A DNA stretch of 64,000 nt from Octopus sinensis. Taxonomy: Eukaryota. Location of the stretch: contig NC_043007.1 in NCBI RefSeq assembly GCF_006345805.1, positions 55,180,001 to 55,244,000 on the forward strand, in the 5' to 3' direction. The position numbers and the translations under genes are program-made. Shown one piece after another: positions 1,500 through 43,340 of the stretch. The notes below the pieces were generated by a model, which saw nothing but the letters and a program-made list of their open reading frames with translations, ran no database searches and had not been told where the DNA came from. Each line of letters opens with the position of its first letter. Within the stretch, counting starts at the first letter, position 1.

Positions 1500-2536
1500 T
1501 GAATTGTCTTAGGAGAGAAGGTAATTGGGGGTGCTGAGGGAACGGTGGGGGCGGGGGGTTTGTGGGTGGGGTGTCATCAATCGGGTTGCCGGGTGGGTCT
1601 GTAGTTTTTGTAGTTTGCATAAATCTTGTGCATACAATTTGAGGAGTGTTCCGAGATCTTGTTGAGGAGAGGGCCTTTGGCGAACAAGATCTCCAGGCTC
1701 TCAGAAATGCAAAGGTCACAGCAGGTATGGCCTCCTGTGTACGAACGCGCCCTCTGTAGTAGTCTCCACTTGATCTTGAAGGGGATGGAGTTCGATGTGG
1801 GCGGCGAGAGTAGTTTGGTTAGATTTGTCAGGTCGCCGGAACGAATGTGTGTGGGCGTACCAACGAGTCTTAAAGCTGTTTGACGTCATTCCGATGTACG
1901 ATTTTCTTTTATCATCGGGGCCTGATCGTACCTCGCATGTGTAGACGAGGTCCTTCTGTAGGCAGTTGTTGCTGAGGGGGCAAGTGGTTTTATCAGGGCA
2001 GTTGCAATTGCTTTTGGATGTTGGATGGGCCCCGGAAAAAGTAAATTTATTAAGTTTTTTCACGTTATTGTTGGCTAGGTTCCTGGCTAGATTGGGCGTG
2101 GTGGAGTAGGAGAGTCTAATGGTGTTCTTATTTAGGATTGTATAGTACTTATGTTGGGTGGGGAAGTGTTTTTGTAGGAGAGTGAAGAAAATTTTAGCTA
2201 CAGGTGTGGAGACCTCACGGTTGAAGGGGGGGTTGTACCAGCTAATATGTCTTCGCCTATTTTTCCTGGGTTGGCGTGGGGCTATGCTAATGTAGGTGAT
2301 CTTATCTTTAAAGCTACTGCGGGCCATGGCCTCGTTGTAATAGGAGGCTGCGGCATTAAAGATATCTTCAGTAGCGGACAGGCTAGATATTCTAATTGAG
2401 ACACTTTTCACTAGGTTGTCTAATATATTTTTGGGGTGGTTAGAATTAATGTCTATATATCTAAGGGATTCATTTGGTTTATGGTACGGGTAATAAAGTG
2501 AGGTTTTTAAGTCGAGGGTAACGTTAAGGAAGTTAG

Positions 2537-4132: not shown

Positions 4133-6542
4133 GATAGCACGTGTATGTGTGTGTGATTGCGGCAGTTTATGTATATGTGTGGTTGCATTTAGTATCGCTT
4201 AAGGTCGTAGGAAGAATTTATAGTAAGAATTTTGGTAGGAGTGGCTGTCTGTTGTGTGTCTTCCTATACACGTGCGTAAGAGAATGGTAAGTAGAAAGTT
4301 GTTTATCTGGTAGTTTGAAGTATGTGTGTGTGCGTGTATTTATATGTTGTGTGTGTGTATGTGTTTTGTGTGCAGGGTGTGTCTGTGTGTGTGTGTATGT
4401 GTGAGTATGTGTGTATGCGTGAGGTTGTGTGTAATTGTCTGCGTGTCTGTATGAGAGTATGTTGTGTGTGTGGGAGGTATGTGTTCATACATATGCGAGT
4501 GTGCGTATGTGTGTGTATGTACGTGTGTATATGTGTGTGTGCGTGTGTGTGTGTATGTGTGTGTCTGCATGTGTGTATGTTCGTGCGTGTGTATATGTGT
4601 GTGTGAACGGGGAGATGTGTGTTGAGTTATGTGTGCGTTTTGTTGCGTGTATGCGCGTGTTTGTGTATGTATGTGTATATGGTTCTGTGTAAGTGTGTAC
4701 GTTTATGTGTGCGTGTATGTGTATACAGGTGTGCGTGTCTGTGTGTTCGTGGGGTTGTGTGGTATCGGTGCAATCTTGTGCGTGTGTATGTGTGTGTGTT
4801 TGTGTACGTTTGTGTGCGCGTGGGTATATGTGTGTGTGTATGTATGCGTGTGTGAGTGCGTGTGTGTGTGTCCGCGCGTATGCGCGTGTGTGCGTGTGTA
4901 AGTGCGTGTGCGTATGTGTATGGAAGTATGTGTGTGTCTATGTACATGTATGTGTGTGGTGTGTGTGGGAGGTATATGTACGTTCATGTGTGTGCACGGG
5001 TGCGTGTATTTTTCGTGTGTGTGTATATGTACGTGTGTGTGTTATGTGTGCGTGGTGCAGAGCGAGGCCAAAGACTGAAATCTCAGAGGGGAATGGTTGA
5101 CCAAGCGGAAGTGACAGACGACTGGGATGTTCGAACGTAGCCTAATATCCCTTAGATGTTCGGTGAACCGGTCGGCCAGTCGACGGCCCGTCTGACCTGC
5201 ATATAGTCTACCACAGAGGTTGCATCTAATACAGTATATGAGGCTAGAAGAGGTGCAAGAGAAGGAATTTGTGATGCGAAGAGTGTACTGATTGGAACCC
5301 GTGAGAGAGGTAGTGTTGATGATGAAGGGGCAGGTGTGGCAGCGGGATCTGAAGCACGGGAAGGATCCAGGGGGCGGGAGAGAAGGTGCTACGGACCAGA
5401 AGATCGCTTAGGTTCCAGGTGCGTTTAAAGGAGGACAAGGGTGGGTTGGGGAAAATGGAGCGGGTGGTGGGATCGAGGTGGAGACGACGGAAGGCCCGTT
5501 GGATCCTCCGACAAAGGGATAGGGTGGAGGGGTGGAAAAGGAGGGTAAAGAGGGTGCGGTTAGGGGGTTGGTGTGTGGAAGGAGAGATGGTGCGATCGAT
5601 TCGACGAGTTCTGGCAAGGGCAGTTTGGATAAGGGTTGAGGGGTATCCTCGATGCATGAACAGGCGGGTATGGTACTGGCACTGAGTCTCAAAATCCTGG
5701 TCCCGGCTGCACAAACGTCGGTGGCGGAGGAACTGGGAGTAGGGGATGGCCCGTTTGGTGTGGAAGGGATGGGAAGAGGAGAAGTTGAGGTAGAGGTGGG
5801 AATCTGGGGATTTGAAGAAGGCGGAGGTGGTGAGAGAGTGGGCAGGCAGAGGTGGTGAGAGAGTAGGTTTGAAGAAGGCGGAGGTGGTAAGAGAGATATC
5901 AAGGAAGTGAACCGAGGTGTTAGAGATAGTAGAAGTGAATTGGAGAGAAGGGTGGAAGTTAGAGAGGAAAGAGATGAAGTGGCAGAATTGTTCACGGGAG
6001 AGGGAGGTGGCACATATACAGTCGTCTATGTTGCGACCGTATAGTTCTGGGGTTGGCCCGGAGAATTGGGAGCATGCTTGGGCCTCAATGTGACCAACAA
6101 ATAGGTTGGCGAAATTGGGGCCCATTCTCGTTCCCTTCGCGACCCCAGACATTGTTGGTAGGTTTACCCGGCGAACGTAAAGTAGTTGAGGGTGAGGACG
6201 AGTTTTGCCAGGCGAAGAAGGGTGGAGTGGTGAGTGTGGGGTCAGGGCGACGGTCGAGGACGTATTGGAGTGCTAAGAGACCGTCGTTGTGGGGGAATTA
6301 CCGTGTATAAGGATTTGATATCCAAGGTGAAGAGGAGGTGTGAGGGGACGAAAAGGGAGAGAAGGAAAAGGAATTGAAGAAGCGAAGAGCGTGATTAGTG
6401 TCGTATATGTGGGATGGAAGGGCAGCAACTAAAGGGGACAGGATACGGTCAAGGTATTTGGAAATGAGTTCGGTGGGGCAATTATAGGCAGAAACAATAG
6501 TAGGGCGGTCAGGGTTATTGGGTTTATGTATTTTGGGAAGGA
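3790..6542 (-). mobile_element. Penelope-like element (Neptune-like), 5'-truncated and frameshifted: RT, GIY-YIG, ~1 kb CA-rich 3' region, hammerhead-bearing terminus
   Basis: FLPKIHKPNNPDRP at about 6540; GVAKGTRMGPNFANLFVG; the catalytic motif is mutated to RNIDDC; KRAIPYSQFLR; LIYCIRCNLCGRLYAGQTGRRLADRFTEHLRDI at about 5150-5245. Both ends abut (TA)n. Confidence 0.9.
3861..3891 (-). ncRNA. Minimal hammerhead ribozyme motif in a Penelope terminus (degenerate stem III)
   Basis: The minus strand reads CTGATGA-A-GAG-ctcca-CTC-GAAAC-ATG. Confidence 0.6.
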
Positions 6543-9110: not shown

Positions 9111-9686
9111 GTATAAATATATATATATATCTTTATATATATAAAACTGAGAATGTGTGTGTGTGTCTGTCTGTCTGCCTGTCTGTCTGTCTGTGTTTCC
9201 CTAAAACTTGAGAACTACACAATCAATTTCATTCAAATTTTACACATGCCTTACTTAGAGTCCATGTAGTTTCATGGGAAAAAAATGTTCAACTTCTTGC
9301 CTAGAGCGAGCCCATAGCAATATCATATCTTCTCCACTATTTCAGTATTACGTGTTAAAAGTGAAACAAAAATATTTCTCTATTTTATGTCAGATGTTTT
9401 CACTTTAACAATAAAAATAATAATAACAATTGAATTATATGTAGTAAGTAATAATTAAAATCAAACTAAAGTATAATATAAGTAAAAACAGCAATTGGTA
9501 TAAAATTGCATCAATGATTTGAACTTGAATAAGTGGTTTCACATGAATGGGAATTAAATAAAAATAAAATCAGCGTGCAGAAATGGAATAGTCCAGATGG
9601 ATAATAAAAAAAAATAAATTAAAGAAAAACTATTGTCTATAAAGTATACAACGTAGACAAAAAAGAAGAGCTAACAATTGCAGTCT

Positions 9687-11535
9687 TCATTGCGTTGGTT
9701 AGTTGTTTTTTCTGTGAACAGTTAAATTGAAAAAATAGGTTGAATCGCGTGAGGCGCTTGCCGCCACGTGTTGGAACCTTGTTATAGAAGGTGCGTCGAC
9801 CCTCAAGTCATGGAGACTTGCGCGGGGGTCGCCGCTACGAGGAGTGATGAGCCTCTTATGGTGGGAGAGGTGTTCTTTGGAAAGGAGCAGTTGATGGATT
9901 GTGAAAGGTTCATCAGGGGGGAGGGTGGCAGCGTGGGGCTGGTCCCGCCTGCTGAAGCGATGGAGGAGAGGAATGGTAGGACTATCACGTGCAGGACGCG
10001 GGACAGAATTGCAGAGGAATTGGTGAGAGTAGTGATGGAGGAGATTGAGAAGTGTCTGGGGGACATTGTGAAAGGGGCAACGTGCGTGAGCGGAGGAAGG
10101 AAGTATGGTGCGGTGGACGTGAGATGCGCAACGGGGGAGGTTGCGGCCTCGTGGCTTCCACGGTTACTGAAGGCTGAAGGCTTCACCATGTGGCTAACAT
10201 GTGAGGGACGAGGGGGGGTTCAGGTAGAGATGCCAGGGGTGCCCCCAGAAATAGAAACGGAAATGCTGGTAACAGCTATCCTGGGGTCGGCAAGGGATGA
10301 AATGGAAATGGGCTCGATCAGGGAGACCAGTGTTGTGAACTGGAGGGGATTCGGAGTGGAGATGTGGCTGATGGCCACAGAGGAAGACATGGAAGGGTTT
10401 CCCTTCCAAATTGAACTTGAAAGTGAGGGAACAATGAGCGTAGTTGTGGAGGGGAGAAGGCCGAACTGCTACTTGTGTGGGTCAGGAGGACACATAAGAG
10501 GGGAGTGTCCGCTATATGAATTCACAGCGGAAGGGGAAATGGAGCAGGGAGAGACACAGGGTGGAGAGAACAAAGAAGAGAAGGAAAAAGAACACGAAGT
10601 AAAGAACAGCGAAAGCAAGGAAAAGGATATAACGGTGAAACAACAAGAGAAAGGAAATAACAACACACTGAAGGAAAATGAAATCAAAGGGAAGAAATTA
10701 ATGGAAGAGGAACAGAGTTCACAGGGTAGAGAAGTAATAGAGAAAGAACCAAAACAGAATCAAGAGAAGGAGAGGGAGGGTACACTGGAAGAAAAGAGAG
10801 AAAACAGGGAAAGAACAAGAGAAGGAACAGAAGCAAGAGAAAGGAAAAGATGGTGCACGAAAAGAAAAAGAAACAACAGGAAAAGAACATAAGGCACAGG
10901 GTAGAGAGACGACAGACAAAGAGCCAAAAAGACAAGATAAGGAAAAAGAAAGAAGAGAAAACAAAAAGAGAGAAAGAGAGAATCAAAGAGAGGAGAACAA
11001 GGAAGAAATAAGCCCGAAAAGGAAGATGAAGGAAAACGCAGGATGGAAACAAGATTACTATTACTATAAGTTAGTAACCTACCATTTCTGCCCTGAAATG
11101 AGTGAATTAACAAGTAAAACGGAGGGACATATATGGGTCAACAGGATGACCGACCGGTGGGAGGAGACTGCTCTAATCCCCGAGGAAGGTGCCGCTGAGT
11201 TCTTCAGAGCTGCCGGAGAGAGTGTAATATTTTACACGAAGGTTCGAGTGAGAGAGCGGCTACCTGAGGACTCAGTGATGGACTTCAGAGAAGTGGAAAC
11301 AATTATAGAAGATGTATAGAATTGTGAGAGGAAAAAAAAAGAGAAAAAAGAAAATTTGGTGAAATATATGTGACGAATATGTAACCTCTTGATTCCGGGG
11401 ATCTTATTGTAAATATTCTTTCATATGTCATTATTATTTTTATTTTTCCCTTTTCTTGTCATTCGCTTTCTTATTTTAAGTTCCCCGATTGTATTATCCC
11501 CTTTATGTTCGCCCTTTGTGGGTAGTAATAAAATC
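9687..11535 (+). mobile_element. ORF1-only (HAL1-like) non-autonomous element related to the adjacent Tx1-like LINE
   Basis: Shares the 5' motif TCATTGCGT and the 3' tail TTGTATT.TCCCCT.TATGTT.GCCC.TTGTGGGTA.TAATAAAA with the neighbouring LINE. No endonuclease or RT sequence lies between the ORF1 end (11319) and the tail. Confidence 0.8.
9768..11319 (+). pseudogene. Gag-like ORF1p with a CCHC zinc knuckle and an E/K-rich region; one frameshift near 10860-10890
   Basis: CYLCGSGGHIRGEC knuckle. The blocks GRKYGAVDVR, VPPEIETEMLVTAILG and VVVEGRRPNC align with ORF1 of the next element. A second frame continues to the TAG at 11319. Confidence 0.8.
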
Positions 11536-11790
11536 ATTGCAGTCTTCATTGCGTAGTGAGTTATTATATTTTCCTCTGTTATATTCTACTGTGTTTTTGA
11601 AATACTGTTGACTTTGTCTGTATTGTCTGTTGTTGTACAATTATTGTAATCAGCCTTCTTGCGAGGGCTTCGTGTTGGTGTTCCCCCCTCCGTGGGGGAA
11701 AAACTATCATTATTGCTGCATTTGAGGCTTGCAAAACAAAAAACTTTTTGTCGCGGTTGTGCTAAAGGCTTGTTAAGCCAGTTTTCGGAG

Positions 11791-13087
11791 ATGGACTCCC
11801 CCATCTCCTATTCACCCGTGTCAAGTGATGCAGGATCACCGGCGGTGTCGCCGAGAATAGAAGAGACCCCAGCACCAGCTAGAAAATTTTCCGAAGTGGC
11901 CGGAAAGAAAGTTAAAAATATCGACACAGAAAACCTTCAGAAATACGCAGAATGTTTTAAAAAAGAGGGCACAGAAGTAACGGTGTTTACGAATGCCCCA
12001 AAACAAGAAGAAATTGAAAAAAAAAGAATCATATACAAAACATTTAATATTACAAGCAAGTCTATTCAAAAAATAGAAGAAAAAAAGATCGAAAATTACT
12101 TGAAACCGATTTGGAATAAGATCACTTACATTAATCGCGGGAAAAAGTACGGTACAGTGGAGGTGAGATTTGAAACAGAGGAAATAGCCAAAAAGCTATC
12201 TACGGAACCTATGAAAGCAGAGAATATTGTTCTCCTCCCCCTGCATAGAGGCAAAAGAACTTCAAGAATAACAATAAATAATATTCCGCCAGAAGCGGAC
12301 GCCACATGTCTGGTGGCAGCAGTTATGGTAGGCCTGGAGGATAAAATAAACATCCTCCGGGCCACAGTAGAAGAGGAGGAACATTGAAAAGGGCAGCGTA
12401 TCTCGATGGCCATACAGGCAGAGATACAAACCCTCGAAGATATACCGGAGACACTGAAAATCAGTGAGGACGAAAGAGTCGTGGTCTTTGTGGAGGGTAG
12501 AAAGCCGAGGTGCTTCGGCTGCAGAAAGAAAGGGCATGTGAGGGCAGAATGCCAACCCAAACCGCAGGAAGCAGCTCAGCCAGATAAAAAAACGGAAGAA
12601 GTGTCACCAGAATCAACGCCAGACAGCCCAGAAGGGACAACTGAAGGTGAGGAGGTGACGGAATCAGCGGCGGAAGTAACAAAAGAAACAAAAAGCGAGG
12701 AAACGAAAAATGAGGAGGGGTGGTCAAAAATCACTAGGAAAAAAAGAAAAACTGAAACCACCCCTCCGAAAGTAAGCCTAAAGAAAAAAAGAGAAACATT
12801 AAACTCATTTATGGCCATTAAGGCCTCAAATAATAGACTCATTGATGTGTTGGCAGCTATGGCCAAAGTAGAAAAAAAAAAAAAAAAAAAACGATTTCAT
12901 ATTGTACAGGATAGGCCGGAAGGATTACGGACGGATAAAGTCCGAATTTTTTCATGACGTGGGCCCTCTCAGAATGGATATATTATCACCATATATATTC
13001 GAGGGCCTGCGTCAGACTCCCCCACGAGGCCCAGAAAAAGAGGAAAAAAATGAAGAAGAGAAAGGAAAAGTCGAACCACTGATATAA
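11791..13087 (+). pseudogene. Tx1-like ORF1p (zinc knuckle)
   Basis: ATG at 11791; CFGCRKKGHVRAEC. The in-frame TGA at 12385 falls where the paralogue has Trp (EEEH*KG vs VVNWRG). Frameshift in the A-run at about 12871-12891; TAA at 13085. Confidence 0.85.
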
Positions 13088-13095
13088 GGTAAGTC

Positions 13096-16000
13096 ATGGA
13101 TTACATTTATGTTGGTTGTTTAAATGTGCGCGGCCTGGAATCAAGCTGGAAGCAAGGTCGCTTCCTTAATGATATCAGGTCGCGTAATTTGGATGTTATT
13201 GTTGCTACAGAAACCCGGTTAGAGGGGCCAAGAGGTCTACTCCCGCTGTTTGACGGCTACGAGTGTTTTTTCTCTCCGGCCAGTCCTACAGGCGTGGGTG
13301 GGGTGTTGGTCCTATTAAAAAGAAACCGGGTTTTTGAGAAAAAGTTAATTTTTTCAGACCCAGAAGGTAGGCTGGTCGTCATGGATTTGACGTTCAGTAA
13401 CGGTAAAGTTATCAGACTGGTTGCAATTTACGCACCCAACCAAAAAGGGCAAAGTGATTATTTTCGAGAACTGGAAAACTTTCTTGGTACTTCGCATTCA
13501 TTAGTTGTGCTAGGAGACTTTAACACAATTTGCAAAGCGGATGTAGATTGTGTTGGCTTGCGTCCAGATAGAAAAGGTAACATTGGCTTCCTGGAACTGC
13601 TAAGCCGCTTTGAGCTAGCAGATCCTTATAGGTTGGAATTTCCGAACGCTCCATTGTGGACATGGTCAAACAGCGACGGATCTTCCAGGTCATACATAGA
13701 TAGGATACTAATTAGAAAAGTAGACAGAAAAATAGCTAAGTGTCCACAGTTTTACCTGGTCAGCTACAGTGATCATAAAATGGTCACCTGTAAGCTTGAC
13801 ATAGATAAGGTTAAAAATAGAGGCTCCGGTTACTGGAAACTTAATACGTCCCTTTTGGCTATTAAGGAGTACAGAGACCGGATTAGGACTATAATTCAGA
13901 GGGCGCTATCTGGTGCCATCATTAATAACAAATGGTGGTATGCCCTCAAGCGAGCCATCAAATTCGAGTCTATTAGATATAGCATAGGATTAGTGGCTAG
14001 AGAGGCTAGGAGGGAATCTACTCTAGTTAAGGAATTAGAGGAAGCCTTGAAAACTGGCTCTGCGACTCAGGTGACGGCCAAGAGACTGGCGTTAAACCAG
14101 CACCTCGAGGCCAAACACATGGGCTGCATTGTCAGGGCTAGGATCCGCGCAATGGGTTGTGAAGGAATCAACGCCGTGAGATGGGCCCGAGTGGTGGAAG
14201 CTCAGCGTGGTAACGACGCCACGATTCGATCTATGACGAACCAACAAGGTGAGTTGATAAACGAGCCCGAGGAGATGTGTGAGGCCTTTCAGGAGCACTT
14301 CGCTCAGCTTTTCGGTGAGTGCGGCGGACTGGATAGGAGGAGGGCCTTTACGGACCTCTTCGACGGGCTGCCGCGCTTATCGGGGCGAGATGCGGAGGGC
14401 TATGAAGGGCCAATCACGCCTGGGGAGGTGGTTGAGGCGATGGTGGACTGCAGCGCGGGCAAGGCGCCGGGTTTAGATGGTCTACCCTATGAGTTATATA
14501 AGAGTATGCCAGACTTGTTCGGGCACCTACTGGCGGAGGTCTATACGAACTGGCAGCAGAACGGGTTCATACCCAGATCTGTGCGCCGGGGAGTAGTGAA
14601 ACTCGTCAGAAAGTACCCGAGCAAGGGGGAGTGCATTGATAATTTCAGGCCCATCACTCTGCTAAACACAGAGTTGAAGATTTTGGCCAAAGTGTTATCG
14701 AAAAGATTAGCGCGTGTCGCGGATGGTCTGATCGGGGAGGCACAGACAAGTGCCGTTCCCGGCAGAACCATTCAGGATAATCTCCATCTTATGCGGTACA
14801 CTATAGAGGGGTTTAATAGTGATTCTGGCAAAAGGTGGGGCACTGGTCCATTTAGACCAACTAAAGCATTCGATAGGGTCGACCATCGCTACCTGGTATC
14901 TGCCCTGGCACAGTTCGGGCTGGGCCTTGGCTTCCTCAGGTGGATTATCTAAATTTACGACAACATCGACTCGGTAGTTCGGGTGAACGGTTTTTGTCGA
15001 AGCCGTTCAACATCAATCGCTCGGTTCGTCAAGGGTGTCCGCTCTCCCCGCTTTTGTACGTGATGGCTCTTGAGCCATTACTGCGAAAACTGAGCGGCAT
15101 CCCGAGACAGCCAGGTTGTGGAAAATCAGTGTCAGCGTACGCGGATGACATCACCATCATCGTAACCGAAATGGACCACCTACAGAGGGTAAGCAAGGCC
15201 ATAGAGGTTTACGAGACGGTGACAGGAGCAAAGGTTAATCGTGAAAAGTCAGTCGGCTTGCAACTCGGCACCTGGAAAGGCAAGTCAATGCCTCCTGACA
15301 GCGTCGTGGGACGTTGGACGGAGGGTCCGATTAAGTTGCTAGGGGTTTGGTTCGGTCCAGACCTCCAAATAGAGAAGAATTGGGGCGAGGTATCGAGCAG
15401 GGTGGCTGCAGTAACCAAGACCTGATCTTGGCGGTGGCTATCCCTGAAAGGGAGGGCGGAGGTAGCCAATGTGTTTATCGCATCGGTTATCACCTACCGC
15501 CTTTCCGTCATTCCTTGCCTTGATTCGTGGTTGATCAAGTTGGAAAGACAGCTCTTCTACTTCTTGTGGAAGGGCGGGAAACCACTTGTGAAACGCTCTA
15601 CTTGCTGTCAACAACCGTTAAAGGGTAGGCTAGGGATGCCTTGGCTGATGATGCGCAGACATGCGCTGATGTTAAGACATCTGTGGCTCTACCTGGATGG
15701 TGAACGGGTGTGGTCTCCGCTAGGAAAACTGATGTTTCCCAAGTTCACTAGTTTCGGTGGATGGGAAACCTGGCTGAATCGTAGATCGAAACTGGGCACA
15801 TGGTACACGGAGTGTCGCAAGGCTCTCCTGCTATTCTGTCGCTCGGGCAACGCCTGCGGTGGGGGTTCCACCACATTCTTCTATAGAGGGTTGGTAGAGG
15901 CGGAATGTGAAGATACCTTGGGGGAAACCCTAGGTCTCGACGATAATCAGCTGGCCAGTCTGTTCCGACGTACGTTCGAGCCGAAGACACCGGACAACTT

Positions 16001-16490
16001 CCAGAAGTCTCTGGCATGGCAATGCTACAGAGGAGCTCTACCTGTTCGGGATAAACTCGCAAGGCACGGTGGCCAAGACAGTCCGATATGTCCAAGATGC
16101 GAGCGGGATAAGGAAACCGTCCCGCACGCTATTGTTCATTGTTCGGTCGTGTCAGAGGTGTGGGTTTACGCCGAACAGCTGTTGTCAAGCACACGAAGAG
16201 TACAGCTGTCGACTGAGTCTATTACAAAAATTGACCCACCAGATTTCCTCGCGAAAGAAAGTAAGAATAGTTTTCTCGTTGTAGTAGCAATTGCGAAAGA
16301 GGTGATATGGAAGACGAGAATGAAAGGTTTACGGTCAGGCAAGTTCATCTCCGGCCCTGGTTTGATGAATTACTTCATCTTTCACCTGAAAAGGAAGATA
16401 GGGCTGGAGAGAAAATGCCTGACTAAGAGAGTGTACGAAGAACGATGGAAAGATGTAGCACGAAAGTTGCGAGTGGATGATCCCACATAA
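13096..16490 (+). pseudogene. Tx1-like ORF2p: APE endonuclease, reverse transcriptase and C-terminal Cys motif
   Basis: CLNVRGL, ATETR, VLGDFN, SYIDRI, SDH (APE); KAPGLDG, NFRPITLLN, KAFDRV, RQGCPLSPLLY, AYADD (RT); CPRC...H...C. Frameshifts at about 14830-14990 and a stop at 15423. Confidence 0.95.
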
Positions 16491-16912
16491 ATGTAAAACT
16501 AGACGAAACCAAAGTATCAGTAGGGAGGCGGGGCTCGTGGGGTCCGAGCTAAACCCGCTCCCACTCCATCCGTGATGTCTTCCGGTCTGTTCCTCATTCA
16601 ATTTTTAATATTTTTGTAATTTTTGTAAAGTTTTAAATTCGCCTTTTTTTGCAAACCCATTCGTTAATCAGACCCCACATCAGGTTGTATTGTCCCCTCT
16701 ATGTTTGCCCCTTGTGGGTAATAATAAAACAATTCCAGTCTCTTATATATTTTGAGTATTGCTATCACTAGCGATATCAAGATATAACTTTGTATTTTGC
16801 ATTTTATGTGTAGATGTATATATATAGATGTACATGTAATATGTACACATATATATACACATATACACATGCACTAGCACTATGACCCGGCAACGACGGG
16901 TCTTTAATGCTA

Positions 16913-16968
<56 letters not shown>

Positions 16969-17389: not shown

Positions 17390-19628
17390 TACTTACCTCC
17401 TCCCCCAAAATAACAAAACGAAAGAACCAAAAACTAGACATGTTTATCTACTACCTATAAGATTTTGACATCTATTCTAGTAGAGAAAACATATACGTTT
17501 ATGGAAGAGAATAACCTCTTTCTCATTGAACAAAAAGGATGCAGACGAGGCTCATACGAATGCAAAGATCAGCTCCTAATTAATCGCATGATCCTTGAGA
17601 ACTGCCATAACAAGCGCAGAAATCTCAGCTCTTCATGGATTGATTATAAAAAAGCCTTTGACAGCATACCGCATTCGTGGATTCTGAAATCGCTGGACAT
17701 TTTCAAAATTTCTCTTGTGATTTCAGATTTTTTAAAGTATAATATATCACTATGGAACACGAAGCTCCAATTATATCATTCTAATGGAGAATTGCGCTCA
17801 AGCAACATTAGCATAAACTGTGGAATTTTCCAAGGTGACTCACTTTCATCACTAATTTTCTGCATAGAACTAATACCACTCTCAAGTGAACTGAATAGAA
17901 CAGGATATGGCTACAAAATTGACAACAGGAAAATAAGCCATCTATTTTATATGGATGATTTAAAGCTATATGCCAAAAAAAAAAAAATGGCTTGAAGGAT
18001 TATTACATACCGTGAAAGGATTCAGTGATGATATCGGGATGGAGTTTGTCCTTGAAAAGTGTGCCAAAGCCACTTTTAAGAAAGGGAAATTGGTAAAGTC
18101 TAGTTCAATCGAATTAGATGTCGAAACAGTAATAAAGGAACTTGAGCAGGAACATGCAAGCATGAAAGAGAAGGTTAGGAAGGAATGCTATAGAAAAGTT
18201 CGAGCTGTCCTGAAGTCTGAGCTGAATGTATATAATAAGGTGTTAGCCATAAATTCCTTAGCAGTACAAGTTGTTCTTTATAGCTTCAATTTGCTTAACT
18301 GGAATACCAGTGAAATAATGAAAATTGACAGAAAAATCCGCAAGCTACTGACTTGTAATAAGATGCACCATCCAAAGGCAGACGTGGATCGCCTTTACCT
18401 TCCCAGAGCTCAAGGAGGTCGAGGTTTGATCCAGCTTGAACTTACATACAAAACCACCACAATCGGACTGGCCAAATACCTTGAAGTAACCAACGATTGG
18501 ATGCTAAAACTTGTTGAAAAACATGAAAGACCGAAAAAACTTCACTCTATTCTCAAAGAGAGCAAAAAATTCGCTGCTGATCTCTTAGATACCCACCAGA
18601 TTGATCAGGCTGAAGGAAATGCGCCAACTGCAGCTGCAAAGAAAATAAAATTAATTGCAAAGACAAAAGCACATGAACATTTAGCTAGCAGATGGGAACA
18701 GAAACCTCTCCATGGCAAGTATGTGACCCGTAGCAAACAAGCTGATGTCGACCAGAAACACACGCACCAATGGTTACGAAGCTCAGGGCTAAAAGCAGAG
18801 AGTGGAGGTTTCATATTAGCTGCTCAAGACCAAAGCTTATTAACCCGGAACTACCAAGCCAATGTGGTAAAAAATGGAGCTGACCCAAAATGCCGATTCT
18901 GTAACGATGAGATTGAAACAATAGACCACCTAATCTCAGGGTGTAGAGTCTTAGCACCTGCAGAATATAAAGCAAGACATGACAGAGTCGGCCAGTATTT
19001 ACATTGGACAATATGTAGGTATTATAAAATCAAAACCGCTGACAAATGGTATAAATACCATCCTGAAGCTGTGACTGAGGGAGAAAATGTGTCGATTCTA
19101 TGGGACTTCCCTGTACAGACCGACAAGACTATAAAAGCTAATAAACCGGATATTATTATAAAAGATCAGACAAAAAAGATGTGTGTATTAATTGACATGA
19201 GTATCCCTTGCGATCACAATATAGCGGCGAAAGAATTTGACAAGATTAGTAAATATAAAGACCTGCTAATAGAAATTGAAAAAATGTGGCATCTCAAGGC
19301 GACTACAGTACCAGTGATTGTAGGATCTCTAGGAATGATAAAAAAAAGGTACTGAAACCTATTTGAAAATGATTCCAGGCTTACCATCCCTACAGGAAGT
19401 GCAAAAAATCGTATTAACTGGAACGGCTCATGTACTGAGAAGAGCATTATCGCTGTGAAAACAACATCCATCCATGAATTTATTTATTTATTAATTTTTA
19501 AATACATATTTTATCTGTGAATTTGCGTATGTAGTCTGGGAATGCATACAATGAGCTTCTCTGCCCTAGGTGTATGGAAAACACTGGGCGAGAAATGGAA
19601 GAAAATTTGAAGAAAGAAGGAAAGAACA
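17390..19628 (+). mobile_element. 5'-truncated R4/Dong-clade LINE (RT, CCHC, restriction-like endonuclease) flanked by (TAA)n
   Basis: EQKGCRRG, WIDYKKAFDSIPH, GIFQGDSLS, HLFYMDDLKLY, ADVDRLYLPR, CRFC...H...C, RHD, ANKPDII...IDMSIP...KY.DL. Frameshifts occur at A-runs (about 17980 and 19345), the YKYLG block appears deleted, and the stop is at 19458. (TAA)n lies at 17335-17388 and from 19629. Confidence 0.92.
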
Positions 19629-29332: not shown

Positions 29333-30879
29333 CCTATATACTCCAGTTCGCTTCAAACTTTAATAGTGGTAACACTTTGAATAAAGCTGCACGAATACAT
29401 TTTTAACCAGGATGAACTCTGGGTGCTGAACTATATATCCTGTATTGCCAAACCTTTGCGCGGAAATAACACTTTTACTTATAATAATCACCAGAACAAA
29501 CACTTCAAGCGCCATGAACGCAACCTGAACAAGCTACAAGATCGTCTGTGTAGTCATCATCCGCATTATCTTCCACACAGGATATCGAAATCGTTTTCAT
29601 CATCATTACTTCGATCCGTCAACATGATCTCTATACTGCAGAGTTAATCCGTTGCCCGGCTTAAATTCCCCACGTAGGTTTTGAGTGCATTTTGCATAAT
29701 CTACTCTGTTTTATACACAGGATCCCAGGTCTTGGGTTTGGAAATAAATTCCACCTTTCTTGCCACTATGCAAGGAGGACTTGAAAATGGTTTATGTTCT
29801 CAGTTTGCTTGTGCGGATGTAAAAAAAAAAAACTTTCCTTACTCTGTGGTTTACTGAAACGCCACTTCCTTATAAGCGGAGTAATTCAAAATCCAAATAT
29901 GGAAATATGAAATAACAGTTATTTCAATTCAGATATTTTGATTAAATTTTAGATCTGTCATACTAGCTATCGACTTAGTCACTACTCCTTAGCTGTGCGA
30001 TTAAGTTCTCAGCAATTATATCTTCTTTCTCACACCTTTTCTGTGATTCTTTCTCCACAACATACCTTGTCTTATTGTTTATATTTTCTCACGATACATG
30101 TTCTGTTGTTGTCCCACCTCTGATTAGAGCTTCCTATCAGCATTTAATTGTTTCTAATTTAGGTACAAGATCAACCGTTCTGAGGATAGGCGATTTGTCG
30201 GTAACATTGCCCCAAGAACTTGATTGGTACATTACTTTATTGATTTCCGAGAGATGAAATGCATAATTGATTTGAACTCAAAACGTTAAGAGCCAAAATG
30301 AGTATTGCAAAACACTATTTTCCGTTTCTCTAACGATTTATCAGCTTACTCTTTTTATTAACTTTGATAATTGCTTGTAATATAAGCATAATACCGTATA
30401 AGCATTCCGTAGTTTAACTAATCCATAGCTGGTGCCTGTTTTAATGATCGCCAAATGAGGAATGACAAAGAAGGTTCTGTGGGATTTGACTTTGGACTGT
30501 ATTAACGAAAACTAAAGTCTAACATGTAACCGCAGGAGAGAGACTAGTATTTACTTACATCCTCAGTTACACAGGTACACTATATATAACCGTCAGGTTG
30601 ATGGGAGGATTCATAACCGAGGCATTTAGAGTGAAAATACATGGTCACTCAACCTACAGGAAACACCAAATAAGTCAACTTCAAATCATAATCTACTGTC
30701 TCAAAACAAAAAGCAGTAAGACACTGGAAAATAATAAGCTGATACGTCTGGGACGTCTTTCATTGTATATCAGGAGTGACATGAGTTTAACAACAAATCA
30801 AGAAATCGGTGGTTGTGCCTGTATCACAGACATATAACTCAATTGTCAAATCCTCCTGACTTTATGTGGGCACTGATGG

Positions 30880-33567
30880 CTCTTTAACAGGTCGGGCGGA
30901 TTTCTTTCGACGTTTAGAAGTATTCCTAGGAACGTCTCGTCCTTTACTTTTAGTGGGGAATTGGAATGCTATCTTGGACACACATATGGACTACGTGGGC
31001 AGAGATAGGAATAGACGGGGATGCAAATGCCTCAGAGACCTGCTCAGACGCTTTCAACTGTCTGACAGGTACGGACTCAACCACCCGAATGCGCCAACGT
31101 GGACATTGAGCAACCGCATCGGGTCGTCGAGATCGCATCTAGATAGGATACTGTGCAGGACAGTAGATAGAGATAGCATAGGATGTCCACAATTCCACAT
31201 GGTCAGCTACACAGATCACCAACTTGTGACATGTACGCTAGACTTAGGTAAGACGCATAGGCAGGGTCCCAGGTACTGGAAACTAAACGTGTCTTTCCCA
31301 TCGAGACAAGTTTTCAGAGACCGGATTAGCACACTAGTAAAGAGGGCTTTGACGGGAGCCATCATCAACAACAAATGGTGGTTTGCCCTCAAGAGAGCAA
31401 TAAAAGCAGAAGCGATTAGGTATAGCAAAGCACTAGCCATAGATAGAAACAGAGTAGAGAGTGAGCTAGTTAAGAGGCTAAAAGAGGCATTTAGAAGCGG
31501 AATCGCATCCAACGTTTTGGCGGCGAGGTTGGCCCTCGACCAACACTTCAACGCCAAACACGAAGAGTGTGTTGTCAGAGCTAGGATGCGTGCTCTAAGG
31601 AACGAAGGTGTTGGAGCCGCGCGAGAGGCTCGGGTGGCAGAAGCGCAACAGGGCAACAAAGTCACCATTCGGTCTCTGGTAGATGAACAAGGGCGCGAAT
31701 TACTCGAGCCAAGTAAAATGTGCGAGGTCCGTCAATGATGCCCCCTCTCGTCGCTTCTATACGTATTGACTCTCGAGCCATTACTGCGGAAGCTGGCGAC
31801 TCTGAGGGACATCCCGCGAGAATTGGGATGCAGGACGAGCGCGTCTGCATACGCGGACGACGTCACCGTCATAGTGTCTAGCCACGAGCAGATCGAGCTG
31901 GTCGGCGAGACACTGAAAGACTACGAAGTGGTGACAGGAGCGAAAATCAACCGGGAAAAGTCAGTGGGCTTGCGGCTCGGCACATGGAGAAGCAAACCCA
32001 TGCAATCCACCAGCGCCTCCGTAGTGGGACGCTGGACCGACGGTGCAGTCGAGTTGCTCGGGGTCTGGTTTGGTCCAGACCTCCAAATGGAGAAGGACTG
32101 GAACGAGATAACGAGTAGGGTGGTCACTCTCGCCCGGCAATGGGCCGAGAGGAAACTGTCCCTAAAAGGTCGGGCGGAAGTGGCGAACACGTACATCGCG
32201 TCCATCATCTACAACCGCCTGACCGTTGTGCCTTGTCCCGACCCTACCATCACCAAACTAGAATGCATTCTCTTCCGCTTCTTGTGGAAAGGATGCGTCC
32301 CGATGGTCAGGCGATCCATTTGCTGTCAACACCCGTTAAAAGGAGGACTGGGCATGCCGAGGTTGATGATGCGCAGACACGCGCTGAGACTGCGACATCT
32401 CCGGCTTTACGTAGACGACGGTGAACAGATGTGGTCGCCGTTTGTGAGGCACGCTTTCCCGCAGTTCGTCTCCATGACCGAACTGCAGTCGTGGATCAAA
32501 GTGAGGCCGAGGAAGGGCAAATGGCATCGCGAGTGTCGTGTTGCTCTCAAGCAACTATGCCATCCCAGGTTGACCTTGAGCGACTTCAACACAACCAAAG
32601 CATTCTATAGGGGGTTAGTGGAGGTGAGGTATGACGACGATCTCAGGGCGAACCTGGGCGTCGACGAGGAATACTTGACCCGCCTGTTCAAGACGACTTT
32701 CGGGCCGGGACCTATGGACAACGTCCAGAGATCCCTGGCTTGACAGTGCTACAGAGAAGCGCTACCCGTTCGGGATAAGCTCTACAGACACGCTCGAGAA
32801 ACATGGGGCCGACCTGCCCGAGATGCGGTCAGAGCGACAAAACCGTTCTGCACACACTCGTGCAGCGTCCAATCATTTCCGACCTGTGGGCTTGTGTCGA
32901 ACGACTGCTGTCACGTGTGGGACGAGTCGGTTTATCAGCCGAGTCTATCGTCAATATCGTCACACCTTCCTTCAAACAGGAAGGAAGAGCTATTTTCATC
33001 ATACTTGTGGCTATAGTGAAAGAATGTATCTGGTTGACACGTCTGAAAGTATTAGAGACAAACACTTTCTTCTCTAGTCGATCTCTCGTCAACTTCTGCA
33101 AGTATCACTTGAAAAGGAAAGTGAGAGTAGTTTTGTCTAGCGAATGTTTCAAAAAAAGATGGGTGAATGTAGCAAGGATGGCACGTATGAATGACGAAGC
33201 CACCTTGAGCATAATCCTATGAACCCGGAAAAATCTAAAACAGAGAGTTACTTACTTGCAAATAAATGTATTAACATGTGACATTATTGACCGACGTTAC
33301 CGTGGTCTTTTCCGTAGGCTTTTCTTTCCACGGATAAACCTTATCTGCTTCTCCTTTTACACTTTACATCATGACATTTCTGTTATACACGGTTCCTATT
33401 GATCGTTTTTTTCTCTCTTTTTACGATCCATTTTGATCGAAAACCTACCCCCCCTTTTTATTTTTTCTCTTTCTTTTTCTTTTCCTTTTTTTTCTCCCCC
33501 AAAAGAAAACTCTACTTTGTAATTTGTCCTTTCTGTGTTCAACCCTGTGTGGCTAATAAAGAAACAT
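30880..33567 (+). mobile_element. Second Tx1-like LINE (related subfamily), 5'-truncated, with an internal deletion of the RT core
   Basis: Collinear with the ORF2 at 13.4-16.5 kb (GAIINNKWW, AYADD, VWFGPDLQ, LSLKGRAEVAN). It jumps from EPSKMCE to VRQ*CPLS at about 31727. 3' tail TTGTCCTTTCTGTGTTCAACCCTGTGTGGCTAATAAAG. Confidence 0.92.
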
Positions 33568-34192: not shown

Positions 34193-34640
34193 GGATCTTT
34201 TCGGTTTGAACGGCAGTTTTTAACATAATTTCTAGGTAACTAAAAAATTTTAAACATCGTATACTGGTAGAATGTGTTTATAAAACATCTTTTTCTCTTG
34301 GATTTATTGAGAAAATTCTATAGTTTGTAAAATATTTGTTGTTTTTTTTCTTTAATTTCTGCAATTTCAACCAATCACTAACGTCAATTAAGGTAAAAAA
34401 CATTCTGTGCCGTATGAATATGTCCCTCGTTTAAGAAACAGATTGGGTTTATTTACATTTGTGAAGAAAAAAAGATACCCTTCCCCCACCCCTAACCCTT
34501 ACCCTAACCCTAACTAACCCTAACTAACCCTAACCCTAAAACAGATTGAAATGCAATAGATCAATACTAGGGTCATAATTATAGGTGACAATTTCATATG
34601 ACGCCGCTAGAAAAAACTGCCGTTCAAACCGAAAAGATCC
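34193..34640. mobile_element. MITE with 29-bp TIRs and an 8-bp TSD (Merlin-like), containing (CCCTAA)n
   Basis: TIR GGATCTTTTCGGTTTGAACGGCAGTTTTT at both ends; TSD CTGTTTCG at 34185-34192 and 34641-34648. GG-starting TIRs with an 8-bp TSD fit Merlin (inference). Confidence 0.88.
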
Positions 34641-40928: not shown

Positions 40929-41591
40929 TAGTTTTATTTTTATAGCGTGCTTTCACTTCAGTACCGAGCGCAGCTCTGTGTGCCTTGGGTATGTGCTGTG
41001 ATTTGTTGTGATGCTCTGATGGTTATTGTATGGAAAGTGTTCTGCGTAGGATGTGTGCAGTGCCTAGTAGTGCAATTTTCTGTATGTTATATGTGTTTGT
41101 AAGTCCTGGTGTTTTTGTTATGTATTTGTCTGAATATTTTTTTATCATGCCTAATGCACCTACTATGATAGGGATTGTTTCTGTTTTCAGATTCCACATT
41201 CTAGTTATCTCTATTTCCAGGTCTTTGTATTTTGAGAGTTTCTCCATTTCTTTTAGAGACACGTTGTCATCTGCCGGTATTGATACATCAATTAGAAAGC
41301 ATTTTTTTTCTTCATGATCTCTGACAACTATATCTGGTCTGTTGGCCTTAATTTCTCTATCTGTGTGTATCGGCATATCCCAGAGTATTGTTGCTTTCTC
41401 GTTTTCTGTGACCTTTTCTGGTGTGTGCCTATACCATCTTTTTTCTGTTGTTATTCCATAATGTTGGCATAGCTTCCAATGTATGTAGGTTCCAACTCTG
41501 TCATGTCTGTGAATATATTCCTTCTTAGCCAGGACTGGGCAGCTAGAGATAATATGATTTATTGTTTCTTGTCCATCTCCACATATTCTGC
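40926..41591 (-). mobile_element. R4/Dong LINE 3' fragment (restriction-like endonuclease), copy 1
   Basis: ORF 41023-41376 reads ANRPDIVV...LIDVSIP...EKLSKYKDL...PIIVGALG. The 3' end runs into (TAA)n. Confidence 0.9.
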
Positions 41592-41716: not shown

Positions 41717-42585
<869 letters not shown>

Positions 42586-42589
42586 AAAA

Positions 42590-43340
42590 ATCCCTCTACC
42601 TTAACTTCTCCTCCTACCACCCTACCCATACTAAGCCTACCATCCTTCTACCCTGCCCCTCCAACGCACCATTCTCTGATCCTTCCGGAGGTCCATAACC
42701 TGCGTGACTTCATGGTCCTTAGTTTCTCCCATAACGCCACTTCCCACGCTATCGTACATGCCCCTACCTCCCCAACACCACCATCCTCACAAGCACCCAT
42801 CATCTTCCCAATCACGTCACTGATTCCTTTACCTGCATTCCTAGTAACGTCATTTAGTGCATCTCCTGTTCTTTCTGCCCTTCTTTGTACATCGGTCAAA
42901 AGGGACGCTTCTTGGCTGACCGGTTCGCGGAGCACCTCCGAGACATCAGAGTCGGCAATGACACCCCGGTCTCGTACCATTTCCGCTCTACCGGTCATTC
43001 AGTACAACATCTGTCTGTGTTCGGACTGTCTTTGCACAGGGGACCATCGCCGTGAACAGGAATTAATATTCTTTCTTCGTGCCTTTGCGTCACATGGGCT
43101 CAAATCCCCTCCTCTCTTCATCTTACACCTACCACTTCTCTTCCCTCCTATCTACATCCTCTCTTCATTGATAACACCATCAAATACCTCTGTTTACTCT
43201 CTCTTATATCTTTCTGTTGAAGAGTGTAGGCTCGAAATATAAAAGACTTTTTCATTTTCCCGAGCGTCAAATTATTACATCCGGCTTGTTGTTCATACAT
43301 CTGTCTTCGTCTTTTGTTTTTCTATAAATTTCAACTATAT
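42590..43340 (+). mobile_element. Deleted Neptune-like Penelope fragment (GIY-YIG) with a hammerhead terminus at 43209-43246
   Basis: LYIGQKG...LADRFAEHLRDIR...PVSYHF at about 42885-42985; TCTTTCTGTTGAAGAGTGTAGGCTCGAAATATAAAAGA. Confidence 0.8.

What the first reader, a model, noticed from the sequence alone, without database searches (positions are those of the whole stretch)
9687..11535. HAL1-like ('half-LINE') family apparently derived from a Tx1 LINE
Seen: a ~1.85 kb unit with both termini, a zinc-knuckle ORF1 and its own C-terminal region, but no trace of endonuclease or RT. It is far too diverged from its neighbour to be a recent deletion product, yet the cis termini are conserved. Known: HAL1 elements are ORF1-only non-autonomous L1 derivatives. 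Inference: a long-lived parasite that supplies its own ORF1p and borrows ORF2p. I do not know of one described in a mollusc, but I cannot check.
Basis: partly seen in the sequence, partly recalled or inferred. Interest (0 to 1): 0.75.

Follow-up and report, generated by a model that had tools for sequence, protein, structure and literature searches.

The report
ADAR-scarred half-LINE in an octopus
A 1.85-kb jumping-gene copy, likely from an octopus genome, carries only the first of the two usual LINE genes, likely belongs to a multi-copy family that borrows its copying enzyme from full-length Tx1 elements, and has about 40% of the testable A's in the front half of that gene changed to G, likely because an RNA-editing enzyme hit its RNA before it was pasted into the genome.

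Summary
The unit is real: 9687-11535, between two copies of a 10-bp target repeat, with a Tx1-type ORF1 (predicted tandem RRMs, CCHC knuckle), a Tx1-type 3' end 216 nt after the stop, and no ORF2 trace. It lies head-to-tail before a broken full-length Tx1, inside a Helitron-like repeat.

Corrections: ORF1 is frameshifted here (true end 11319), and the 3' end is clade-wide, not special to the neighbour.

The ORF1 belongs to a multi-copy lineage: 20 distinct Octopus vulgaris proteins (24 accessions, 8 contigs, several consecutive runs) share its C-terminal domain, none fused to EN/RT. Whether those copies lack ORF2 could not be tested, because no DNA of relatives was obtained. The HAL1-like reading stands at about 60%.

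New: the 5' half of ORF1 carries a one-way A-to-G excess (32 of 80 testable A's; 26:6 against the reverse) with ADAR's 5'-neighbour preference (p=1e-5), absent from the C-terminal domain and the neighbouring Tx1 copies. This copy is most likely a dead-on-arrival product of hyper-edited RNA. Verdict: new variant of a known kind.

The parts
9130..9686 (+). Left part of the host repeat, Helitron-like non-autonomous element (begins TC after an (AT)n run); label inferred from termini, Helitron end features recalled
   Evidence: Sequence; single copy in the window; no Rfam family near its gathering score
9677..9686 (+). Target-site copy 1, ATTGCAGTCT (extends to 14 bp, 9673-9686, matching 16728-16741 with one mismatch)
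9687..9809 (+). 5' UTR of the unit; starts TCATTGCGT like the neighbouring Tx1; composition not G-shifted
9810..10800 (+). ORF1, in-frame first part: predicted two RRM-like domains (aa ~11-215), CCHC knuckle (10467-10508), start of charged linker
   Evidence: AlphaFold model pLDDT 88.4; Foldseek best matches are tandem-RRM proteins, E 1.6e-5; PF00098
9810..10540 (+). A-to-G hypermutated tract with ADAR-type 5'-neighbour preference; edges approximate, may tail off to ~10800
10753..10889 (+). Tandem repeat in the linker (period 73 by TRF) that holds the +1 frameshift
   Evidence: in-frame relatives
10804..11319 (+). ORF1, second part in the shifted frame: rest of the linker and a ~87-aa C-terminal alpha/beta domain (about 11059-11316), stop at 11317-11319
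   Evidence: 71-88% identity to O. vulgaris relatives; model pLDDT 81.7; only middling ferredoxin-like matches, best Z 7.7
11320..11535 (+). 3' UTR, 216 nt, T-rich, ending in the clade-conserved ~45-bp block and AATAAAA; no ORF2 remnant
11536..11545 (+). Target-site copy 2, between the unit and the full-length Tx1
11546..16729 (+). Full-length but broken Tx1-type LINE (Tx1A): ORF1 with an internal stop, ORF2 with EN, RT and zf-RVT in several pieces; representative of the likely helper type
16728..16741 (+). Target-site copy 3 (one mismatch)
16742..16913 (+). Right part of the Helitron-like host: subterminal hairpin 16884-16902 and CTAG 16910-16913 followed by T
   Evidence: DNA fold z -4.98, 0 of 200 shuffles as good

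Best explanation
The unit is a dead, frameshifted Tx1-type retroelement copy that has ORF1 and no ORF2; it likely belongs to an old ORF1-only (HAL1-like) octopus family that would be copied in trans by the ORF2 protein of full-length Tx1 elements, and its RNA was likely hyper-edited by ADAR before reverse transcription. Mechanism. Shown: ORF1-only anatomy, Tx1-type 3' end, the same target sequence as the full-length neighbour, a 10-bp flanking repeat, a multi-copy ORF1 family, and a one-way A-to-G tract with U/A 5' preference. Inferred: a source copy is transcribed from its 5' end and makes its own ORF1p (RRM-RRM-CCHC RNA chaperone); a helper's ORF2p recognises the conserved 3' block, nicks the preferred target inside a Helitron-like repeat and reverse-transcribes the RNA; each insertion duplicates the target, so elements pile up head to tail. 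For this copy the 5' ~730 nt of ORF1 were double-stranded with a partner RNA (not in this window) and deaminated; inosine was copied as G, which fixed roughly 100 or more changes (estimate from composition) without creating a stop.
For: ORF1-only family: no ORF2 remnant; stop-to-end distance 216 nt against 239 and 340 nt in the two Tx1 copies of the window, with the stop at the family's conserved position, so a one-off deletion would need both breaks in narrow windows. 20 of 28 members of the six clusters hit by the C-terminal domain carry it (24 accessions, 8 contigs, all O. vulgaris); none of the six representatives up to 2000 aa has an EN or RT domain on record. Consecutive accession runs (CAI9715245-249 and 251; CAI9739099-101; CAI9729052-053; CAJ1099379-380), with 1-27 differences between members of the first run, fit tandem arrays. 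The clade includes O. bimaculoides proteins and excludes Tx1A (100/99). Same target as a neighbour whose ORF1 is 26% identical; precedent for tandem insertions sandwiching a TSD in a DNA transposon target (PMC4494074, passages). Editing: residue differences explained only by A>G versus only by G>A are 26:6 against P0169, 43:10 against P0001 and 11:0 against P0009. 32 of 80 testable A's are changed in aa 90-245, against 1 of 61 in the C-terminal domain and 11 of 168 in Tx1A ORF1. Changed fraction by 5' base: T 11/15, A 15/26, C 1/7, G 5/32, p 1.2e-5, matching ADAR's U/A over C/G preference (PMC3113232 section 7). T>C is not raised (0-1 sites per comparison). Terminal branch 0.51 against 0.01-0.13 for most clade members. 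Six relative-versus-relative control pairs show no comparable excess (most lopsided 19:13, 0:3 and 3:7).
Against: No DNA of any relative was seen, so ORF2 absence in the family is untested. Gene annotation can skip ORF2: five O. vulgaris models splice an unrelated upstream peptide to this ORF1 across an intron of unknown length, so consecutive accessions do not exclude ORF2 between copies, and runs of identical proteins may be isoforms. The O. vulgaris models all start at internal methionines, so a full-length intact ORF1 of this family was not seen there. The A>G calls are inferred from protein comparison with relatives 40-76% identical, cover only non-synonymous sites, and one control (Tx1B) showed a borderline neighbour bias (p 0.048). 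No inverted partner for duplex formation was found in the window. P0009 shows the same out-of-frame peptide after the linker, so the frameshift may be older than this insertion.
Confidence: 0.55

Rival explanations
1. One-off loss of ORF2: the ORF1 family is an ordinary autonomous Tx1 family, and this copy lost ORF2 by DNA deletion, template jump or splicing of the RNA (spliced L1 retrocopies are recalled, not checked); the editing reading is unchanged.
For: Divergence from Tx1A does not exclude another parent. The nearby Tx1B copy shows that large internal deletions happen (EN-linker joined to RT near 31730). Annotation may hide ORF2.
Against: Both breaks would have to fall outside coding sequence: no ORF2 remnant, UTR of normal length. 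This ORF1 is annotated 20 times, while five other octopus Tx1-type ORF1 clusters looked up (P0005, P0006, P0011, P0019, P0024) have one member each, as expected if a short element keeps ORF1 despite 5' truncation; this is weak.
Confidence: 0.33
2. The A-to-G excess is not RNA editing but lineage drift in composition, GC-biased conversion or a DNA-level mutator.
For: Only protein-level inference was possible; Glu codons supply much of the spared 5'-G class.
Against: One strand and one direction only: T>C not raised, C content 15% against 19% in Tx1A ORF1. Confined to ~730 nt. Hits residues conserved in two distant relatives (12 A>G-only against 1 reverse among 27 differences at 81 conserved sites). 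Absent from the closest relatives.
Confidence: 0.1
3. The unit and Tx1A came in together as one read-through RNA or by segmental copying, so the middle target copy is inherited and the unit need not be mobile by itself.
For: The outer junctions match over 14 bp while the middle one matches over 10.
Against: Tx1A shows no editing excess; the unit has its own perfect 10-bp flanking repeat; sequential insertion is the published reading of such tandems (PMC4494074, passages).
Confidence: 0.12
4. A domesticated host gene derived from ORF1 (as with L1TD1).
For: O. vulgaris copies are annotated as genes.
Against: Intact transposon termini and target duplication, a frameshift, loss of conserved residues, and dozens of near-identical dispersed copies.
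Confidence: 0.02

Closest known systems
HAL1 (half-L1), mammalian ORF1-only L1 derivatives
   Same: ORF1 kept, ORF2 absent, both ends of a LINE kept; presumed mobilisation in trans (PMC5753468 passages; PMC5786205 passages).
   Different: ORF1 here is Tx1-type (predicted RRM-RRM-CCHC plus its own C-terminal domain); short conserved 3' block and a preferred target; likely a cephalopod host; independent origin.
HeT-A and other ORF1-only telomeric elements (Jockey clade); Ag-Sponge (CR1 clade)
   Same: ORF1-present non-autonomous LINEs; telomeric ones form head-to-tail arrays with autonomous relatives; about 40% of Drosophilid telomeric families are ORF1-only (PMC13534243 passage).
   Different: Different clade; arrays here arise at an internal target, not at chromosome ends. 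The 2018 list of ORF1-present types names L1, Jockey and CR1 clades, not Tx1.
Target-specific Tx1 families and their passengers (Tx1L in Tx1D; Tx1-Mar with SINEU in Mariner-N4)
   Same: Insertion into a DNA-transposon target, tandem copies sandwiching a TSD, shared target used as evidence of trans-mobilisation (PMC4494074 passages).
   Different: The passenger here is protein-coding and LINE-derived; the target looks Helitron-like and target preference rests on one locus.
ADAR hyper-editing of repeat RNA, and deaminase footprints fixed in retroelement DNA
   Same: Clustered A-to-G with 5'-G depletion; octopus has one of the two strongest hyper-editing signals among the animals screened (PMC5625713 passages).
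   Different: Here the changes are in genomic DNA. The genomic footprints in the paper read are APOBEC-type G-to-A (PMC2873906 passages); ADAR footprints in proviral DNA are recalled and named in scan notes.

Membership tests
HAL1-like ORF1-only LINE family | ORF1 present, ORF2 absent in the element | tested here: met
   (this copy only)
HAL1-like ORF1-only LINE family | 5' and 3' ends of a LINE retained, flanked by a TSD | tested here: met
HAL1-like ORF1-only LINE family | ORF1 family present in many dispersed copies | tested here: met
   20 distinct O. vulgaris proteins, 24 accessions, 8 contigs; protein level, in a related genome
HAL1-like ORF1-only LINE family | Many copies share the same ORF1-to-tail junction, i.e. 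ORF2 absent family-wide | tested here: inconclusive
   No DNA relatives found; no EN/RT fusion among six hit clusters, which is weak
HAL1-like ORF1-only LINE family | ORF1 under purifying selection (dN/dS < 1) | not testable with these tools
   Needs DNA of copies; this copy is frameshifted and hypermutated
HAL1 proper | Derived from mammalian L1 with L1-type ORF1p | tested here: not met
   Relatives are cephalopod CCHC-knuckle ORF1s; no L1 ORF1 Pfam match
Tx1 clade | RT phylogeny places the autonomous partner in Tx1 | not tested
   No reference RT set on hand; label rests on EN+RT+zf-RVT ORF2, knuckle ORF1, target preference and recalled knowledge; O. vulgaris has 80 L1-Tx1 families (PMC13282606 supplement)
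Tx1 clade | Target-sequence preference | tested here: inconclusive
   Two different elements at the same 10-bp target at one locus; other loci not seen
ADAR hyper-edited sequence | Dense one-strand A-to-G cluster | tested here: met
   (inferred from protein comparison)
ADAR hyper-edited sequence | 5' neighbour U/A preferred, G avoided | tested here: met
   T 11/15, A 15/26, C 1/7, G 5/32; p 1.2e-5
ADAR hyper-edited sequence | Long double-stranded partner | tested here: inconclusive
   None in the window; it would lie at the source locus or in an antisense RNA

The most novel reading that the evidence does not exclude
Octopuses carry a long-lived Tx1-derived ORF1-only family that stacks with autonomous Tx1 elements in head-to-tail arrays at one target inside a Helitron, and germline ADAR regularly hyper-edits these RNAs on their way back into DNA. 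Cephalopod genomes would then hold a datable fossil record of RNA editing written into the germline, and possibly of editing as a brake on LINEs.
Probability: 0.35. Interest if true: 0.72.

Novelty: new variant of a known kind. Interest (0 to 1): 0.5.

Why it matters
If the family is ORF1-only, it adds a fourth LINE clade (Tx1) and a mollusc to the short list of protein-coding LINE parasites, and offers a young family with a defined 3' signal and target for testing why such parasites keep ORF1. If the editing reading holds, it shows that ADAR acts on retroelement RNA in octopus germline or early embryo cells and that edited RNA is still reverse-transcribed. That makes RNA-to-DNA write-back of editing countable genome-wide in an animal group known for heavy editing. 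Such copies also inflate repeat-age estimates.

Tried and rejected
No genome was held, so copy number and junctions could not be checked by BLAST.

DNA relatives: a 3'-end pattern in metagenome contigs gave 0 matches; the ORF1 alignment gave no confirmed locus in metagenome (0 of 518 pattern matches), prokaryote genome (0 of 2) or viral contigs (0 of 18).

The word-index protein search with ORF1 aa 1-245 found none of 1914 candidates, probably because of the hypermutation; the full HMMER search found 160. The ORF2 search was limited to 339-1082 aa and 8000 candidates, so it says nothing on whether octopus ORF2s are annotated.

Sequencing runs: 20 of 24 rows hold part of the stretch, 5 rows from 3 studies and 2 organism labels hold half or more; no RNA holder listed. 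No reads or contigs were laid, so which part is held is unknown. Shares of 0.21-0.30 in runs of 0.55-0.7 Gb would exceed the 1-2% expected for a single-copy locus in a 2.8-Gb genome, but library types are unknown, so this is not counted as evidence.

Rfam on the target flanks gave only low-score matches to TA-rich sequence: no sign of an snRNA, tRNA or rRNA target. The 3' block folds into only a 4-pair stem without covariation. The C-terminal domain has no clear fold match and no detectable likeness to the Tx1A ORF1 tail or the 89-aa peptide (shallow profiles); a weak pairwise match to P0014's tail (E 5e-4) suggests a diverged clade-wide domain. Matches of the unit's tail to the Tx1A ORF1 end and the Tx1B UTR are low-complexity runs. 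A three-letter search for an inverted partner gave only 64-67% low-complexity matches.

Literature: Bao and Jurka 2010 was not held; Repbase and Dfam could not be checked. Searches for a Tx1 or mollusc ORF1-only element and for ADAR-edited non-LTR copies in genomes listed no such paper; the library is partial.

Full report
1. Observation. The unit spans 9687-11535. It is bounded by two perfect copies of ATTGCAGTCT, the only two exact copies in the 64-kb window; a third copy with one mismatch closes the neighbouring element at 16732-16741. Both elements begin TCATTGCGT right after this sequence. The unit's last 57 bp are 86% identical to the neighbour's end, and a similar block ends the more distant Tx1 copy near 33560. 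The neighbour (Tx1A, 11546-16729) has ORF1 and an ORF2 with EN, RT and zf-RVT matches, broken by stops and shifts. The unit has none of ORF2 (best tblastn E 1.7 for 7 ORF2 pieces). Its ORF1 is 26% identical to Tx1A's over 208 aa. The flanks look like one Helitron-type repeat split at the target: TC at 9130, and a hairpin plus CTAG at 16884-16913 (z -4.98); the Helitron label is my inference from recalled end features.

2. The protein. AlphaFold on a 79-row alignment gives a confident model of aa 1-245 (pLDDT 88.4) whose best Foldseek matches are tandem-RRM proteins (E 1.6e-5), followed by one CCHC knuckle. The listed 360-aa ORF leaves the true frame near 10790-10805, inside a linker repeat. 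The next frame runs to 11319 and encodes a compact alpha/beta domain (pLDDT 81.7; no clear fold match) that is 71-88% identical to the in-frame end of relatives. P0009 shows the same out-of-frame peptide, and P0167 and P0171 have other shifted stretches in the A-rich linker, so slips recur there.

3. The family. A full HMMER search found 160 relatives; those with names are from Octopus vulgaris, O. sinensis, O. bimaculoides and Argonauta, which is the basis for calling the host a likely octopus. The C-terminal domain hit six clusters. Of their 28 members, 20 carry the domain (24 accessions on 8 contigs, most 94-98% identical to P0169 over the shared part); the other 8 are unrelated 89-106-aa peptides. 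Several accessions are consecutive, and the longest run (six of seven numbers) holds sequences differing at 1-27 residues, which fits tandem copies. Five gene models splice the unrelated peptide to this ORF1, which fits mixed arrays like the one in the window but also shows that annotation can jump over whatever lies between. In a tree of 24 chosen ORF1 cores the unit groups with these proteins and three O. bimaculoides proteins (100/99), apart from Tx1A. So the ORF1 lineage is old and multi-copy. What follows the stop codon in other copies was not seen: no genome was held, four collection scans returned no locus, and no reads were laid.

4. ORF1-only family or one-off loss. For a family: the stop is at the conserved position, the distance to the end (216 nt) is that of an ordinary 3' UTR here (239 and 340 nt), and no ORF2 remnant is left on either side. 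None of the six cluster representatives has EN or RT on record (weak). Five other octopus Tx1-type ORF1 clusters have one member each (weak). The unit uses the same target as an element whose ORF1 is only 26% identical. Against: none of this replaces DNA, and Tx1B in the same window has a large internal deletion. I put the family reading at about 0.6.

5. Hypermutation. Residue differences that can be explained only by relative-A to window-G outnumber the reverse 26:6 (P0169), 25:6 (P0177), 43:10 (P0001) and 11:0 (P0009) in aa 1-240, binomial p 5e-4, 9e-4, 6e-6 and 1e-3. Controls are balanced or lean the other way: the C-terminal domain 1:1, 2:4 and 5:6; Tx1A ORF1 16:18, 5:11, 12:17, 12:15; Tx1A ORF2 14:26, 16:18, 28:37, 14:21; Tx1B 9:19, 9:10; six relative-versus-relative pairs. 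The linker is mixed (4:7, 8:6, 9:1). Of testable A's, 32 of 80 are changed in aa 90-245, 1 of 61 in the C-terminal domain and 11 of 168 in Tx1A ORF1. By 5' neighbour the changed fractions are T 11/15, A 15/26, C 1/7, G 5/32 (p 1.2e-5); five of six control sets show no such bias and one is borderline (p 0.048). No clear 3' preference is seen. ADARs prefer 5' U and A over C and G (PMC3113232), and 5'-G depletion holds across animals (PMC5625713). T>C is not raised, which argues against GC drift or a both-strand mutator. The tract is 40% G and 25% A against 24% and 38% in Tx1A ORF1, which suggests on the order of 100 changes; this is an estimate. A-to-G cannot create a stop codon, so the open frame is no sign of selection. 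Among 146 of 152 ORF1 cores tested, two others show the same one-way excess (P0028 28:6, P0091 11:0); both come from Logan contigs of unknown DNA or RNA origin.

6. Mechanism. Shown: anatomy, target repeats, multi-copy ORF1 family, A-to-G tract. Inferred: transcription of a source copy, ORF1p made in cis, ORF2p borrowed from a full-length Tx1 through the conserved 3' block, target-primed insertion with target duplication, and ADAR editing of a double-stranded stretch of the RNA before reverse transcription. The duplex partner is not in the window.

7. Known kinds. ORF1-present non-autonomous LINEs are described from the L1 (HAL1), Jockey (HeT-A) and CR1 (Ag-Sponge) clades (PMC5786205). It works like HAL1 but is not HAL1. 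Tandem insertion at a DNA-transposon target is known for Tx1 and its passengers (PMC4494074). Ten searches listed no Tx1 or mollusc ORF1-only family and no paper on ADAR-edited non-LTR copies fixed in genomes, but the library is partial, Bao and Jurka 2010 was not held, and Repbase and Dfam were not checked. Unchecked notes of this scan report similar A-to-G scarred retroelements in other genomes, so the editing footprint is probably not unique.

8. What I read. Passages: PMC5753468, PMC5786205, PMC4494074, PMC5625713, PMC10294476, PMC3747384, PMC13534243, PMC2873906. Abstract and sections 7 and 8: PMC3113232. First third of the text and a search of its supplement: PMC13282606; its repeat library was not seen and may already hold this family. 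Recalled only: Helitron end features, spliced L1 retrocopies, ADAR footprints in proviruses.

9. Verdict. Observation largely confirmed with corrections; the HAL1-like family is likely but its key test is open; the A-to-G tract is a solid added finding. New variant of a known kind, interest 0.5.

Noticed in passing
window 30860-33565 (+): Second, more distant Tx1-type copy (Tx1B), 5'-truncated within the endonuclease and with a large internal deletion near 31730 joining the linker to the middle of RT; same kind of 3' block.
   Followed up: partly
window 9130-9686 and 16742-16913: Helitron-like non-autonomous repeat of about 730 bp split by the two retroelements; a possible new kind of Tx1 target.
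   Followed up: partly
proteins P0172, P0173, P0180-P0182, P0185-P0187 (O. vulgaris): A young multi-copy 89-aa peptide family (one sequence on 9 contigs) that gene models often splice to this ORF1; it may be the ORF1 tail of another element sharing the arrays. No Pfam match.
   Followed up: partly
proteins P0028 and P0091 (Logan contigs): Two other Tx1-type ORF1 fragments with the same one-way A-to-G-type excess (28:6, 11:0); DNA or RNA origin unknown.
   Followed up: partly
window 17501-19355 (+), 41023-41376 (-), 41942-42295 (-): Fragments of another LINE type (RT and zf-RVT matches at 17501-19355); two near-identical short 3' pieces of a similar type at 41-42 kb.
   Followed up: no
window 1716-2327 (-), 5244-6152 (-), 42648-43242: ORFs that read like Penelope-type retroelement fragments (recalled likeness; no Pfam match for the first two at E 0.01).
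   Followed up: no
window 34477-34539: Short interstitial CCCTAA (telomere-type) repeat.
   Followed up: no
window 13076-13098: The Tx1A ORF1/ORF2 junction holds a strong splice-donor-like sequence just before the ORF2 start; it might offer a splicing route to ORF2-less RNAs.
   Followed up: no
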